Shown piece after piece: positions 4,255 to 9,625 of a stretch of 64,000 nt of DNA (position 1 is the stretch's first letter; each line of letters starts with the position of its first letter). This DNA is from the human T2T-CHM13v2.0 reference genome, Homo sapiens, in assembly GCF_009914755.1 (NCBI RefSeq), contig NC_060926.1, one strand, 5' to 3'. The notes beneath the pieces are model-generated. The model was not told the DNA's origin, did no database searches, and saw only the letters and a list, made by a program, of their open reading frames with translations. Made by a program: the position numbers and the translations under genes.

Positions 4255-4482
4255 GTGGCATGCATGCAGTGGTTTCATGGAGACCATACAATGCTTGAGA
4301 TGATTGAGAAAAAGCGTTGCTTGTGCAAGGAAATAAAGGCTAGACAGAAAACGGAAAAGGGCCTTTGCAAACAGGATAGCATGCCTATCTTGCCCAGCTG
4401 GAAGAAGAATGCAGGTGCCAAGAAGTACAGCCCTCCACCGTATTCTAAACAGCAAACGGTATTCTGGGATACTGCCATATGA
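4255..4482 (+). CDS. NYAP2: Terminal coding exon (75 codons + TGA) of neuronal tyrosine-phosphorylated PI3K adaptor 2; upstream exons lie outside the window
   Basis: Long polypyrimidine tract ending ...TTCTTTTTTGCTAG at 4254, then in-frame VACMQWFHGDHTMLEMIEKKRCLCKEIKARQKTEKGLCKQDSMPILPSWKKNAGAKKYSPPPYSKQQTVFWDTAI*. This resembles the NYAP1 C-terminus as I recall it (CKEIKAR...GLCKQESMPILPSW...QHTVLWDTAI) but is not identical, so it is the paralog. Identification is from memory. Confidence 0.85.
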   Translation: MACMQWFHGDHTMLEMIEKKRCLCKEIKARQKTEKGLCKQDSMPILPSWKKNAGAKKYSPPPYSKQQTVFWDTAI

Positions 4483-5295
4483 GTGTGTGCAGGATGGTGT
4501 GAGCTCTACATTTCTTAATATGAAGAGGGAGGTCGACTCGGTCATATGATAATGAACTGTTACATATCTTTTCTGTGGGAGTGGAATGCCACGGGAAGCT
4601 GTGCCTATTCGTGGCAAGTTCAAGATAAAATGCATATGTCCTTGCAATGAAGGCACACTTATTTATCCCGGATTATTTTGAATCCAGAAGATATTAAAAT
4701 GTAAATATTTTACTAGTTTATGGGTGACATCTGAAATAATACACATTATACGTATATAAATTACAGAAATATCAAGAGTTTACTATATGATATAATTTCA
4801 GTATTAACTGGTTTGTTATCTCTTTTATATGTAATCCCTTGATGCCTTTTATTATTAATTTTTGCATTTAAAATGTTTTTTTTCCCTTGCCCACATTTGG
4901 TTTCTGTACAAGAGCTCACAACTATAAATCATGTTCAATCACGTAATATATGATCTGGTGCTAGTAACGTAGAAGTTGAATATCATATTTGTTAAGAGCA
5001 TCTGTGCTTTTTAAGTTTCAAGGGTTTGACAGGAAATGAATGCAAATGTGATGCTTAATTTGGACGTCCAAGTTACATTGACAACAATATTTTTGCTACA
5101 TTGGCTTTATAAGAATTTCTCTTTAGCATCCTCTGGCAATGGTTAGGCTAACCATTAGTCTGACTTAGTAATAACTAAGCAATGGTTAGTCAGACTCCAG
5201 AGAAAGTTACTAGGATATATTGGACATCCCAGCAGAAAACATTTCCTTCAGAAATGACTTTAGGGACATGTGTCCTTGCATCATTGATCTGATTG

Positions 5296-5318
5296 GAGGA
5301 GACCAGGGTTCACTGTGA
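5296..5318 (+). promoter_or_regulatory. Extensively complementary miR-128-3p target site (8mer seed plus full 3' pairing)
   Basis: GAGGAGACCAGGGTTCACTGTGA versus miR-128-3p UCACAGUGAACCGGUCUCUUU: nt 1-12 Watson-Crick, 2-nt target bulge, nt 13-18 Watson-Crick, nt 19-21 G:U/A-U/G:U. Confidence 0.65.
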
Positions 5319-6220
5319 CAATGGAAGGAACAAGGAATTAATAGCTCAAGAGCATGACTGCTTTCAAGAAAGTGGGACCAGTGGCATTGTAGCCACCATA
5401 ATCACTATATTTAAGTAACTTTTCATGTGTATGCTTGTTTCCCCAAGAAAATGAGAAATAAACATTCAACTAGACCAGTTTACATATTTTAATACACTAA
5501 ATGCCAATCTTTCTAAAAGTTTAGATCTATTAATAAAATATGTATTTCTTGTTAATTTTTTCAAACTGGTTATCACCACATTTCTGGGTCATAATCTTCT
5601 GTATGTGATCATCACACCCATTCTTACTGATTATGACACCATGACCAAAGAATTATGATCATGTTTCATTTCATTTTGTTTCAAGAAAGAGACAGGAAAT
5701 GCAGGGGATGAGGGATGGGGTGGATTCAATTTTATGTAGTGGTGAAATTTAAGTTAAAAAAATCATATATATCTTTTAAGAAGAACTTGTTAGTTGAATA
5801 TAAATATTGCCACGAATGAATAAAAAAGAAACTATCGCATATATTTTGTATATTTAAATTACTATTTATGCCTCCTAAAATTGATAGTATGTGGTTCTTT
5901 GTTAACAATCAATTTAGTATTATATTTCTGAGAGAAAAGATGTGTTTTTGAAGTTATTGTTATAGCAGTTTTTCTTGTAAGGGTATTGACAGCAATAGTT
6001 CAGTGCTGCTCAATAAAACCAAATATAACAGGAGTTAGAGAATCTTTGTAATCTATATTGCTACAAACCTAGTAATGCTTTATCAGTAATAGTTTCTTTC
6101 AAAAGCCTTTTCAATGTTATAACATGATTTTCTAATGTTTTATAATTAATGTGTATTTTGATGTCCAATTCAAATTCTGAAAAAATAAGGAAAAAGGTAA
6201 GTGGGAGCAGTGTATGGTTG

Positions 6221-6268
6221 GTGTGTCTGTGAGCGTGCGTGCATGTGTGTGTGTGTGAGTGTGTGTGT
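6221..6268 (+). repeat. Imperfect (TG)n microsatellite in the 3' UTR
   Basis: GTGTGTCTGTGAGCGTGCGTGCATGTGTGTGTGTGTGAGTGTGTGTGT. Confidence 0.9.
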
Positions 6269-8261
6269 ACATGAACGAATACTCAGTGGGAGAACTGTAT
6301 ACATAAAACGCTTACTGAAGTTGCAGGTTCTGCTTGTATAATTGAGGTGGTAGAAAACCGGGATCACAAATGCAGGAAATTAGGAAGGGATCTTAAGTAG
6401 CTTAAATAAAACCCGCCAGCATGTTTCACCAGCTATAGATTATGTTTCAAACCAAATAATCTATGAAGCACAAATCTAAGGGTGATGAAAATGTGTTTAG
6501 ATAAAATCAGAATGGAAATAAAATGTGTTTATGACCCAAGTTGTTATCCTGATTTAAGTTATTATGACCACATATACTCAAGCCTATCAGTCAGACACAA
6601 GATACTAATTCTCAGCATGTCTATGATTACGTATATATTCAGGCTCAGTATGGTGATGATTAACCCTCCCTTAAAATTTATATTTAGGGAACATCTTTCT
6701 GTGGGGAGATGCAAGTGTGTTTTTCAGATGCGTATCTTTCCCATATCACTCTGATTTAGGCAGAAAGTTTATTTAATGTTGGCCATTTGTCAAGAAGGAA
6801 ACAAAAGTACTAAAATGATCTGTGTTGGATTAAACCATTCCTGTTTGTTCTATCAAACTTATGCTAGGGCCAGGTTTCATGCACTCCTTTTTCAAATGCA
6901 TTATTTTCTGAGGCGGTAACTTGTTTGAAAATTTGACCTTAGGCAACCATTTTCATTTATTTCCGCAAATCTCTACTTAAGTGGAAAGTGACTGAAAGAT
7001 CTGGAAAAGTGGCTTCACTGAGATTTGACTCAAGAACTGTTATTCTGTGCCTATACGATTGTCCACTGTGGCAATAATCATTCCATGATCAATTTCCTTT
7101 TTGTGTAGTGTTTCTCTAAATGGAGAAAAGGAGATCATTAGTATGTAGAGAAAAATAAGCTGACTCTCTGAAAGTAATCAACTGGGATACTTCAATATAT
7201 TAATTTGGTCAGAATATAGCCTACAGATAGCCAGAACACTATGCCATGATAAAGCTCATATTTCTAGCAGTGCCAAAGAACAAATCATATCATGGCCTGG
7301 TTATCAGGTTGAAAGAGCTCATACTTATGAAAAATGGTCCTTTCACAGCAAATTTCATAGAAACAGAATTTTATTGGATGTCACAAGATGCTTTTATATG
7401 TGAAACACTCCTTAGCAGAGAAGATATAAATTTCTTTAGAATTGATGAAAAGAAAATATAAAAATCTGCATTTATTTCAATCGCAGAAGCCAGCATCCTC
7501 TGAGGTATAAGAGTAGTCTATTACATAAACACCGCTCACATCTCTCCCATGTTTATGCTACTGAAGCAAGCTTGGCGCCAAATGTGATGGATTTATGTAA
7601 ATGAAGGTTAATACTCACCCATGTAAAATAATTAGAAAAGTAAAACAAAACGTCCGGAGATTTAAATTTGTAGTTTTAAAGTATTATATATTCAAATACA
7701 TGCCAATTGTCTGGAGACAACTAGATACAACTTTACTTTCCAAAGTAGTGACAAAATTTTCTTTGAATGCTTCTAGAGAATAAAAGAATGTTTTTATTAC
7801 TACATTTTGTTGGTAGGTCTTGCCTATACATGGAATTTAGTTTGATTCTTTTGAGCAAATCTAGTGACTACGTCAATAAAACTAAAGCCATTGGGTTATT
7901 ATTTTAACTAATAAAATAAGACATCAACACAATGCACGTACAAATGCAATTTTAATATCACTTCCATGTTAAGACAAGTAGAAAAGAGCTTGTAAAATAA
8001 CTACACTCACATGTGAAATTAAGAAACAATTCCTACGATTTAAGCAGTAAGTTATCCGAGATGAGAGGGAATTCACACTTGCAAAGAAATAGAAGTAGAA
8101 TAGATAGCAATTCACAATTCATTGTGTCCCAAACTTAAGTGGAAATAAAAGAAAAATGGTACCTATAGCATTTAACATTATGTCACTACATCTTCCATGT
8201 ATACAAAATAGACAGCTAATTGTAGAATGTGGACCATTTTTTACTAATCTGTTATTTAACA

Positions 8262-8362
8262 GTTGATTATTGAGCAAACTTATGTATCAGGCATTTAAAA
8301 ATTCTAAAGCACTTGGTGTTAAACATTGAAAAAGATGTTGTCCCATCCTTCAAGGAGCTTAA
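8262..8362 (-). mobile_element. L2 3' fragment within the putative UTR
   Basis: TTATTGAGCAAACTTATGTATCAGGCA...GTCCCATCCTTCAAGGAGCTT. Confidence 0.5.
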
Positions 8363-9560
8363 TTATGCAATCATCAATATTTTCAAAATAAAGCCAATTG
8401 TTTTTAAGAAGATATACAATTGTGTTTACATATGGCATTCTCTTTTTTTTCAGATCAAGTGTATAGTCAAGGTAAAATTCTAAACATACTAAACTTAATG
8501 TCTAAGTATAGAATATGTTTATGTGTAAGCCTCGATGTGTGCATATATAATATGTACTGCTGTCTATGTAAATCATTAAAAGGGTAACACATTTTGCCAT
8601 GTTGGACTTGAACATTGTGACTTGGGGTTTGGATGATTTAAAACTCTTTGATATTTGGGTCAATTACATTGCAGCAAAATGTGTGTAATATGGAAAAAAT
8701 GTCTTATTATATTTCCCTTTAAATATTATGAAGTTTCAAATTTAAGGGGAATTTTTTTAAAGAAATGCTGTTGGATTTGTCTCAACCAAACATGAAAATT
8801 CTTTTGAAGTGTTCAATTGTTCCCAAATATAACTGGGTTTGCCCACCCTAAAAGCATCTACATTTACACATGTATACACCCACGTACAGTATACATACTG
8901 TATATAATATATATGAAAATGTTTAGTATGCACTTCTTTTGATTGGAACTCCTTAAGTTAACATTTATAGTGTAGCAACTTGTGTAAAGTGCACTGTGAT
9001 TATAAAAAACAAAGCACAGTAAAGTCACAGGTCTTGTTATCTTGCACTAAAAATGTGTTTACGTATTTAGCAGTTGTATGTTTACTTTCTTGCTCTTTCA
9101 GACAATTGAAACAAATAGCTATGAGAAGATGATATAAAAATAATATGTTTTTTAGTGGATAACGGCACTACATTTTTAAAAGACAGGGTTTTTAAAGAAA
9201 ACCATTTAACATCCATTCCAATATAACATGTTTACCATATCTAAAAATTTGAATGTCATATTGCATTTTTCATAATTCATTAGAAATGTCAGGTATGTGC
9301 CTGAAAATTTGTGCAAATAAGCATTAGATAACAGATTTCTCTACTCATGTGTTATTAGCCATTTCTATATATATAATAATATAAACACTGATGTTTTAAT
9401 GTCTCTTAATTTTTGTACTTGATTTTTTTAGGTAACATGTAATTATAAATGTACTTTGATACTACTAAAGTAACCAGATGTTGTTTGAAAATAAATTGTT
9501 TTCTTTAGTGCATTGACAATATTTTACAATACTTTTTGTGATTATTTATTTGTGCTCCCG

Positions 9561-9625
9561 TGTAATTATAATAAAAGCAATAGTTTAAATTAGTTGACTT
9601 TGTCGTTACTGGTATTTATTTATCA
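9561..9625 (+). terminator. Candidate distal polyadenylation site
   Basis: TGTA (9561-9564), AATAAA (9570-9575), then a GU/U-rich element TTTGTCGTTACTGGTATTTATTT (~9599-9621). Repeat-rich DNA resumes shortly downstream. Confidence 0.5.

What the first reader, a model, noticed from the sequence alone, without database searches (positions are those of the whole stretch)
5296..5318. Near-perfect miR-128-3p site in the NYAP2 3' UTR: candidate TDMD trigger or sliced target
Seen: the + strand reads GAG GAGACC AG GGTTCACTGTGA. Against mature miR-128-3p (UCACAGUGAACCGGUCUCUUU, recalled), nt 1-12 pair Watson-Crick (5318-5307), the target bulges 2 nt (A5305, G5306), nt 13-18 pair Watson-Crick (5304-5299), and nt 19-21 pair G:U, A-U, G:U (5298-5296). 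Every miRNA base can pair, which is rare in animal mRNAs. Established: seed + central bulge + extensive 3' pairing is the geometry of ZSWIM8-dependent target-directed miRNA degradation triggers (Cyrano/miR-7, Nrep/miR-29b), and pairing through nt 10-11 can permit AGO2 slicing. miR-128 and NYAP2 are both neuron-enriched. A second, seed-only 8mer (CACTGTGA) lies at 8992-8999. The site precedes the first AATAAA (5457), so most isoforms using this exon would carry it. Inference: NYAP2 mRNA may degrade miR-128, or be cleaved by it. I know of no report of this but could not search.
Basis: partly seen in the sequence, partly recalled or inferred. Interest (0 to 1): 0.85.

Follow-up and report, generated by a model that had tools for sequence, protein, structure and literature searches.

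The report
Near-complete miR-128 site in NYAP2 UTR
The NYAP2 messenger RNA carries a mouse-conserved site that can pair with every base of the brain microRNA miR-128, and it most likely serves to switch NYAP2 off strongly rather than to destroy the microRNA.

Summary
Window 5296-5318 (+), about 830 nt into the annotated NYAP2 3' UTR, pairs with all 21 nt of miR-128-3p. The duplex is 12 bp, a 2-nt target bulge (A5305, G5306), then 9 bp with two G:U pairs; it scores -33.4 kcal/mol against -37.6 for a perfect complement. It is the only such site in the whole human assembly outside the two MIR128 genes, and it lies in single-copy DNA.

The TDMD idea is not new. The TDMDfinder supplement (PMC8887481) lists mouse miR-128-3p:Nyap2 as a conserved, high-confidence predicted TDMD pair with the same geometry. 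That also shows the 3'-pairing half is kept in mouse.

Published data argue against TDMD.
- miR-128-3p does not rise in Zswim8-/- E18.5 mouse forebrain or hindbrain, whereas miR-7a-5p rises about 3-fold.
- It is absent from the ZSWIM8-sensitive lists, which include induced neurons.
- The site has no internal loop on the miRNA side, which ZSWIM8 recognition favours.

Slicing is untested. The bulge after nt 12 probably impairs it.

Best reading: an unusually high-affinity, conserved miR-128 repression site. Interest is moderate.

The parts
5296..5318 (+). Whole miR-128-3p complementary element (23 nt) in the NYAP2 3' UTR
   Evidence: all 21 miRNA nt pair, -33.4 kcal/mol. Unique in the genome.
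5311..5318 (+). 8mer seed match (pairs miRNA nt 2-8, with A opposite nt 1)
5307..5310 (+). Bases able to pair with the miRNA central region, nt 9-12. The scissile bond, if the target is sliced, lies between 5308 and 5309.
   Evidence: central pairing is worth about 10 kcal/mol in free solution (-32.5 against -22.8).
5305..5306 (+). 2-nt target-side bulge (A, G) between the partners of miRNA nt 12 and 13
   Evidence: dot-bracket structure.
5296..5304 (+). 3' pairing block: nt 13-18 Watson-Crick (5299-5304); nt 19-21 G:U, A-U, G:U (5296-5298)
   Evidence: The same pairing counts appear in the mouse TDMDfinder row.
4483..9592 (+). Annotated NYAP2 3' UTR (5,110 nt, 31.8% G+C) that carries the site about 830 nt after the stop codon
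   Evidence: Hub annotation. (TGA ends at 4482; composition).
8992..8999 (+). Second miR-128 8mer, seed only
   Evidence: -13.2 kcal/mol, no 3' pairing.
7064..7070 (+). Third miR-128 seed match (7mer-m8), weak 3' pairing
   Evidence: -14.7 kcal/mol.
5457..5462 (+). First AATAAA after the stop codon. If it is used, the site sits about 140 nt upstream of the signal.
4693..4698 (+). ATTAAA variant signal upstream of the site. An isoform ending here would lack the site.
   Evidence: Its use is not tested.

Best explanation
The element is a conserved, exceptionally high-affinity miR-128-3p target site. It lets miR-128 repress NYAP2 strongly as the miRNA accumulates in maturing neurons.

Proposed mechanism (inferred): AGO-miR-128 docks on the 8mer, and a second helix forms with nt 13-21 at a +2 offset. 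The long-lived complex recruits TNRC6 and the deadenylases, so NYAP2 mRNA is destabilised and translated less. The central four pairs may form part of the time, and that may allow a minor share of AGO2 slicing. The site does not measurably control bulk miR-128 levels.

Shown: the pairing, its uniqueness in the genome, the identical pairing pattern in mouse, and the ZSWIM8-insensitivity of miR-128-3p.

Inferred: that NYAP2 is actually repressed through this site, and by which effector.
For: - The 8mer plus 9 bp of 3' pairing lies in an annotated 3' UTR.
- Duplex energy is -33.4 kcal/mol, against -12.1 for the seed alone and -17.1 for the next best place in the UTR.
- The mouse orthologue is listed among the TargetScan 7.2 conserved sites used by TDMDfinder, with the same seed type, bulge size and 3'-pairing counts.
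- The site lies in single-copy DNA, not a repeat. It is not an antisense miRNA hairpin.
- A passage in PMC12529927 says positive offsets of +2 to +4 improve AGO-miRNA binding and repression at non-slicing sites.
- miR-128-3p is abundant in E18.5 brain, and NYAPs are described as genes of developing neurons.
- A site in a low-abundance mRNA facing a very abundant miRNA fits 'the target is regulated' better than 'the miRNA is regulated' (inference).
Against: - I found no direct evidence that NYAP2 responds to miR-128.
- The CIMERA-seq mouse tables hold no Nyap2 chimera, although two of the three files mention miR-128-3p 369 and 141 times.
- The supplement of the circRERE/miR-128 paper has no Nyap2 entry.
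- The held CLEAR-CLIP files showed only Huh-7.5 rows, with NYAP2 chimeras in introns only.
- Ordinary repression does not need pairing of all 21 nt, so this reading does not explain why the full complementarity is kept.
- Predicted local accessibility is low: 8th-19th percentile within +/-400 nt in a crude calculation.
- Human NYAP2 is absent from TDMDfinder's human conserved-site sheet, for a reason I could not establish.
Confidence: 0.5

Rival explanations
1. AGO2-miR-128 slices NYAP2 mRNA. nt 2-12 pair contiguously across the scissile bond (between 5308 and 5309), the 2-nt bulge is tolerated, and the 3' helix stabilises the slicing conformation. NYAP2 would then be cleaved rather than only deadenylated.
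For: - Pairing at nt 10-11, and in fact nt 1-12, is uninterrupted, and all remaining nt can pair.
- Conservation of the central and 3' pairing in mouse is more than ordinary repression needs.
- Passages in PMC12529927 show that partly paired sites can be weak slicing substrates in cells.
- A passage in PMC11893014 says pairing beyond nt 16 is needed for efficient slicing with most guides. This site offers such pairing.
Against: - The slicing conformation is a near-continuous A-form duplex through the central and supplementary regions, and H712 contacts target positions 12-13 (PMC11893014 passages). The bulge sits exactly there.
- A 3-nt target bulge between nt 8 and 9 'typically precludes efficient slicing' (PMC12529927 passage). 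The effect of a bulge at 12/13 was not found in anything I could read. Becker et al. 2019 is not held.
- No paper in the library pairs NYAP2 with Argonaute in a relevant way, judging by the titles and abstract openings of 3 of 3 hits.
Confidence: 0.15
2. The site is a ZSWIM8-dependent TDMD trigger. In AGO the central pairs stay open, giving seed helix, internal loop and 3' helix. The miRNA 3' end leaves the PAZ pocket, ZSWIM8 ubiquitylates AGO, and miR-128 is degraded. The effect might be confined to cells or stages where NYAP2 is high.
For: - Seed plus 9-bp 3' pairing that reaches the last nucleotide.
- TDMDfinder classes the mouse pair as 'Predicted' and high-confidence, with an MFE ratio of 1.19. 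My own ratio for the human site is 1.25.
- 17 of 37 tested TDMDfinder predictions showed an effect in HeLa (abstract and passages).
- The 3' half is conserved in mouse.
- The circRERE paper shows miR-128-3p is subject to decay that target binding can prevent.
Against: - miR-128-3p is unchanged in Zswim8-/- against +/- E18.5 tissues: my ratios from the CPM values are forebrain 0.94, hindbrain 0.89, eye 1.04, heart 0.98. miR-7a-5p is 2.9-fold up in forebrain.
- It is not in the sensitive, marginal or secondary lists, which include MEF and induced-neuron columns.
- A listing shows no mention of miR-128 in the main text of Jones et al. 2023.
- In the ZSWIM8-knockout table of Lin et al. 2026, log2 changes are 0.06, 0.14 and 0.10, all labelled 'none'. 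I infer these columns are the three human fibroblast lines named in the text; I did not see the header. NYAP2 is probably not expressed in fibroblasts, so this says little.
[quoted passage not shown] Changing loop length or removing the loop weakens ZSWIM8 binding and ubiquitylation (PMC13083262 passages). Here the miRNA side has no unpaired base, and opening nt 9-12 costs about 10 kcal/mol and leaves a 4x6 loop.
- miR-128 is very abundant, so a rare mRNA is unlikely to move it (inference).
Confidence: 0.1
3. The extended complementarity has no function of its own. A conserved 8mer site happens to sit beside bases that pair with the rest of miR-128. Human-mouse identity would then reflect general constraint on this UTR, or chance.
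For: - Across roughly 200 conserved miRNA families, about 1-2 sites of this class are expected by chance in the 3' UTRs (plus my arithmetic).
- I could not compare conservation of the block with its flanks, because no vertebrate alignment is available here.
- No experimental signal for the pair was found.
Against: - The pairing counts are identical in mouse for seed, bulge size and nt 13-18, and two G:U pairs fall within nt 19-21 as in human.
- The block is 57% G+C (13 of 23, my count) in a 32% G+C UTR, so its chance probability under local composition is especially low.
- miRNA and target are both neuronal.
Confidence: 0.25

Closest known systems
TDMDfinder prediction mmu-miR-128-3p_Nyap2_783_790 (Simeone et al. 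2022, PMC8887481, Supplementary Table S1, mouse conserved-site sheet)
   Same: Same gene, same miRNA and a similar distance from the stop codon (783-790 in mouse; 829-836 in human). It is an 8mer with bulge 2, 9 consecutive 3' pairs, 2 G:U, and is flagged high-confidence.
   Different: It is a computed row in a supplement. It is never mentioned in that paper's text (miR-128: 0 occurrences) and was not tested. The human orthologue is not in the human conserved-site sheet.
Cyrano (OIP5-AS1) site for miR-7, the model ZSWIM8 trigger
   Same: Seed pairing plus extensive pairing to the miRNA 3' end, and a conserved site (passages in PMC13083262).
   Different: [quoted passage not shown] In the NYAP2 site the miRNA centre can pair fully, only the target bulges, and miR-128-3p does not respond to ZSWIM8 loss.
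mRNA 3' UTR triggers Plagl1/miR-322, Lrrc58/miR-503 and Atp6v1g1 with Lpar4/miR-335-3p (PMC13041716, PMC12863257)
   Same: Protein-coding mRNAs whose 3' UTR holds an extensively paired site (abstracts; passages).
   Different: Those miRNAs are ZSWIM8-sensitive, and deleting the site raises them. For miR-128 the first condition fails in the published tables.
miRNA-directed slicing sites of mammals (HOXB8/miR-196; antisense Rtl1 sites), recalled from memory and not checked here
   Same: Near-complete complementarity, including nt 10-11.
   Different: Those sites have no bulge. This one has a 2-nt target bulge right after nt 12. No cleavage evidence exists for NYAP2.
circRERE-miR-128-3p interaction (PMC11953392)
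   Same: An RNA with high-affinity miR-128-3p sites that influences the miRNA in neurons.
   Different: circRERE stabilises miR-128-3p through two canonical sites. Nothing is known about NYAP2 doing either.
Canonical 8mer sites with 3'-supplementary pairing
   Same: An 8mer with a second helix beginning at nt 13, at an offset of +2.
   Different: Supplementary pairing usually spans about 4 nt. Here it spans 9, and the central region can also pair.

Membership tests
ZSWIM8-dependent TDMD trigger | Pairing to the miRNA seed | tested here: met
   8mer at 5311-5318.
ZSWIM8-dependent TDMD trigger | [quoted passage not shown] | tested here: met
   nt 13-21 pair: 6 Watson-Crick pairs, then G:U, A-U, G:U.
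ZSWIM8-dependent TDMD trigger | [quoted passage not shown] | tested here: not met
   In the minimum-energy duplex no miRNA base is unpaired; only the target bulges by 2 nt. Forcing nt 9-12 open costs 9.7 kcal/mol and gives a 4x6 loop. Whether AGO keeps the centre open is unknown.
ZSWIM8-dependent TDMD trigger | The cognate miRNA rises when ZSWIM8 is lost | tested here: not met
   From published tables, not my own experiment. Mouse E18.5 forebrain 8,495 to 7,975 CPM and hindbrain 6,574 to 5,874 CPM. Absent from all sensitive lists, including induced neurons. Stated as insensitive in PMC11953392. Adult brain and human neurons were not covered.
ZSWIM8-dependent TDMD trigger | Deleting or mutating the site raises the miRNA relative to its passenger strand | not testable with these tools
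   Needs genome editing and small-RNA sequencing.
AGO2 slicing site | Watson-Crick pairing at nt 10-11, flanking the scissile phosphate | tested here: met
   nt 1-12 pair contiguously.
AGO2 slicing site | Continuous duplex from the seed through the supplementary region (to about nt 16 or beyond) | tested here: not met
   A 2-nt target bulge interrupts the helix between nt 12 and 13.
AGO2 slicing site | Cleavage products with a 5' end at the partner of nt 10 (5309), dependent on catalytic AGO2 | not testable with these tools
   No degradome data are held. No relevant paper was found.
Conserved canonical miRNA target site with 3'-supplementary pairing | 7-8 nt seed match in the 3' UTR of an expressed mRNA | tested here: met
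   The 8mer lies in the terminal exon of NM_001371273.1 (hub annotation). Expression itself was not measured here.
Conserved canonical miRNA target site with 3'-supplementary pairing | Seed match conserved across species | tested here: met
   The mouse site is in the sheet built from TargetScan 7.2 conserved sites. Only mouse was seen; no alignment is available.
Conserved canonical miRNA target site with 3'-supplementary pairing | Pairing at or near nt 13-16, at a small offset | tested here: met
   nt 13-18 pair by Watson-Crick at offset +2.
Conserved canonical miRNA target site with 3'-supplementary pairing | The target is derepressed when the miRNA is lost | tested here: inconclusive
   No Nyap2 entry in the supplements I could search.

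The most novel reading that the evidence does not exclude
The conserved full-length complementarity exists because the NYAP2 site does something beyond ordinary repression. One possibility is that it is a natural bulged slicing site, which would make NYAP2 a neuronal mRNA cut by a miRNA at 5308/5309. The other is that it destabilises miR-128 locally or in particular neuron types. That could occur through ZSWIM8 in cells masked in bulk tissue, or through the ZSWIM8-independent decay route that the circRERE work implies for miR-128-3p.
Probability: 0.15. Interest if true: 0.75.

Novelty: new member of a known kind. Interest (0 to 1): 0.4.

Why it matters
miR-128 is one of the most abundant neuronal miRNAs. 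From memory, its loss causes hyperexcitability and seizures in mice. NYAP2 links contactin signalling to PI3K and WAVE1 in developing neurons and has been tied to autism-related copy-number changes.

A site that pairs with every base of miR-128 and is kept in mouse would be one of the strongest miRNA-target links in the brain. It would give a clean handle for switching NYAP2 off as neurons mature.

It is also a useful natural test case for how AGO2 and ZSWIM8 treat a duplex that is neither a classic trigger (there is no miRNA-side loop) nor a perfect slicing site (there is a target bulge after nt 12).

As it stands, the site is a catalogued but untested prediction. The most exciting reading, TDMD, is already disfavoured by published knockout data.

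Tried and rejected
- Antisense miRNA gene. The minus strand of 5240-5400 does not fold into a hairpin that places the miR-128-like stretch in a stem arm (z = -1.78; 9 of 200 shuffles fold as well). Rfam finds nothing on L003, the site +/-1.5 kb. Rejected.
- Repeat-derived site. The 261 nt around it match only themselves in the assembly. Rejected.
- Structured element on the + strand. The fold of 5220-5400 is not unusual (z = -1.16).
- Chimera evidence. The CLEAR-CLIP supplement held (two files, one cut when stored) showed only Huh-7.5 rows, with NYAP2 introns; no mouse-brain rows turned up. CIMERA-seq tables have no Nyap2. No verdict either way.
- The circRERE/miR-128 supplement has no Nyap2 entry.
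- Literature link. NYAP2 + miR-128 gave 2 papers, and neither links them. Adding the aliases KIAA1486 and 9430031J16Rik gave 4 papers with no link, judged from listings. NYAP2 + Argonaute gave 3 unrelated papers, judged from titles and abstract openings only. NYAP2 with TDMD terms: none of the 30 listed papers, out of 251 matching, holds NYAP2.
- Becker et al. 2019, on bulge effects on AGO2 cleavage, is not held.
- A wrongly remembered Rfam accession fetched mir-338 instead of mir-128.
- Vertebrate alignments could not be obtained, because no collection here holds vertebrate genomes other than this assembly.

Full report
**What is there.** To avoid relying on a remembered miRNA sequence, I searched the window's own assembly. 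The query was the 18 paired core bases with the two bulged bases replaced by a gap of 0-2. Three places matched: this site and two others, with none for the reversed control. The two others (L002 on contig 2, L004 on contig 3) match Rfam RF00649, the mir-128 precursor, at 94.4 and 93.2 bits against a cut-off of 49.

**Pairing.** RNAduplex pairs all 21 nucleotides.
- nt 1-12 pair with 5318-5307.
- A5305 and G5306 bulge out.
- nt 13-18 pair with 5304-5299.
- nt 19-21 form G:U, A-U and G:U with 5298-5296.

The energy is -33.4 kcal/mol, against -37.6 for a perfect complement and -17.1 for the next best place in the UTR. With cofold the full duplex is -32.5. With nt 9-12 forced open it is -22.8. 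The seed alone gives -12.1 and the 3' block alone -13.3.

The other miR-128 seed matches in the UTR are an 8mer at 8992 and a 7mer-m8 at 7064. Neither has meaningful 3' pairing.

**Context.** The stop codon ends at 4482. The annotated UTR is 5,110 nt with 31.8% G+C, and the site begins about 815 nt into it (hub annotation). The surrounding 261 nt are single-copy in the assembly. Neither strand folds unusually, and the minus strand is not a miRNA hairpin. Rfam finds nothing at the site.

**Is it more than chance?** For miR-128 alone I enumerated one class of site: all 21 nt paired, at most two G:U outside the seed, and one target bulge of 0-2 nt.
- In this UTR, 5e-7 to 1.4e-6 such sites are expected.
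- In an assumed 40 Mb of 3' UTR, 0.004-0.011 are expected.
- In the whole genome on both strands, 0.6-1.7 are expected.

Observed genome-wide, there is one such site outside the two genes. There is no ungapped complement with 2 or fewer mismatches, while the reversed controls gave 4 and 5 hits. The site is therefore probably the most complementary miR-128 site in the human genome.

Over roughly 200 conserved families (my assumed figure), one or two such sites are expected somewhere in the transcriptome. The human sequence alone therefore does not exclude chance.

**Conservation, and prior prediction.** The supplement of Simeone et al. 2022 (TDMDfinder, PMC8887481) has a sheet PREDICTED_TDMD_MOUSE_CS that contains the row mmu-miR-128-3p_Nyap2_783_790. 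Its entries are:
- seed type 8mer;
- mfe -38, ratio 1.19;
- bulge 2;
- 9 consecutive 3' pairs, 6 of them without G:U;
- 2 G:U;
- 2 Watson-Crick pairs among the last four;
- 'Predicted', and high-confidence 'YES'.

The sheet derives from TargetScan 7.2 conserved sites.

These counts force nt 13-18 to pair by Watson-Crick in mouse and put both wobbles within nt 19-21, as in human. It also means the TDMD idea for this pair already exists as an untested computed entry. miR-128 is never mentioned in that paper's text.

Human NYAP2 is absent from the human conserved sheet, and I could not find out why. My own MFE ratio for the human site, computed in their manner, is 1.25.

**Evidence on TDMD.** Shi et al. 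2023 (PMC10620050, supplementary sheet 4) give miR-128-3p CPM in Zswim8+/- against -/- E18.5 tissues.

| Tissue | Zswim8+/- | Zswim8-/- |
|---|---|---|
| Forebrain | 8,495 | 7,975 |
| Hindbrain | 6,574 | 5,874 |
| Eye | 1,131 | 1,177 |
| Heart | 614 | 602 |
| miR-7a-5p, forebrain (for comparison) | 7,024 | 20,093 |

The term miR-128-3p occurs only once in that file, in the CPM sheet. It is therefore absent from the sensitive, secondary and false-positive sheets, which include MEF and induced-neuron columns.

Kelly et al. 2025 (PMC11953392) state that miR-128-3p is insensitive to Zswim8 knockout, citing a review.

In the Lin et al. 2026 supplement, hsa-miR-128-3p changes by log2 0.06, 0.14 and 0.10, all labelled 'none'. 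I infer that these are the three ZSWIM8-knockout human fibroblast lines named in the text. I could not see the header, and fibroblasts probably lack NYAP2, so this says little.

**Geometry and TDMD.** The 2026 ZSWIM8 structure paper (PMC13083262, passages) makes these points.
- The loop allows a 40-degree bend.
- Changing loop length substantially reduces ZSWIM8 binding.
- A fully complementary target binds ZSWIM8 weakly.

The NYAP2 site has no unpaired miRNA base in its best duplex.

**Evidence on slicing.** Pairing across nt 10-11 is intact, which is necessary. Mohamed et al. 2025 (PMC11893014, passages) describe a near-continuous A-form duplex through the central and supplementary regions, with a protein contact at target positions 12-13. 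That is where this bulge sits.

A passage in PMC12529927 says a 3-nt target bulge between nt 8 and 9 typically precludes efficient slicing. It also says offsets of +2 to +4 improve binding and repression at non-slicing sites.

I found no statement about a bulge at 12/13. The key paper, Becker et al. 2019, is not held. I found no degradome evidence and no paper linking NYAP2 to Argonaute.

**Direct evidence for the interaction.** I found none. There are no Nyap2 chimeras in the CIMERA-seq tables. The held CLEAR-CLIP files showed only Huh-7.5 rows, one file was cut when stored, and no mouse-brain rows turned up in the search. The circRERE supplement has no Nyap2 entry. No paper links NYAP2 and miR-128 in its text.

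**Verdict.**
- The most likely role is strong, conserved repression of NYAP2 by miR-128 in maturing neurons, through a very high-affinity 8mer-plus-3'-helix site (confidence 0.5).
- No function of its own for the extended pairing: 0.25.
- Slicing: 0.15.
- ZSWIM8-dependent TDMD: 0.1.

NYAPs are described as genes of developing neurons, and miR-128-3p is brain-enriched. That miR-128 rises after birth is recalled, not checked.

The TDMD reading that earned the high first-stage score is both already catalogued and disfavoured by published knockout data. What remains open and worthwhile is why full-length complementarity is conserved.

Noticed in passing
window 5312-5318: From memory (not checked with a tool), the same bases also form a 7-nt seed match for the miR-27 family, whose seed is the miR-128 seed shifted by one base. 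If so, miR-27 could compete for or share the site.
   Followed up: no
window 4693-4698: An ATTAAA poly(A)-signal variant lies upstream of the site. Transcripts ending there would escape miR-128 at this site.
   Followed up: partly
window 7064-7070 and 8992-8999: Two more miR-128 seed matches lie in the same UTR (a 7mer-m8 and an 8mer). Both are seed-only (-14.7 and -13.2 kcal/mol), so the UTR has three miR-128 sites in all.
   Followed up: yes
whole window: AATAAA occurs 201 times on both strands, against 121 +/- 12 in dinucleotide-preserving shuffles, and 0 of 100 shuffles reach that count. This is probably A/T-rich low-complexity and repeat content rather than signals.
   Followed up: no
PMC4674787 supplement, Huh-7.5 table: AGO chimeras of miR-21-5p and miR-103a-3p map to NYAP2 introns in Huh-7.5 cells. 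The miR-103a one is an 8mer with -30.9 kcal/mol pairing. They lie outside this window's site and probably outside the window.
   Followed up: no
L002:1453-1533 and L004:1451-1533: The two human MIR128 hairpins differ in the loop and the 5' arm but have an identical 21-nt 3' arm. The passenger 5p strands could therefore report separately on each locus in a TDMD test.
   Followed up: partly
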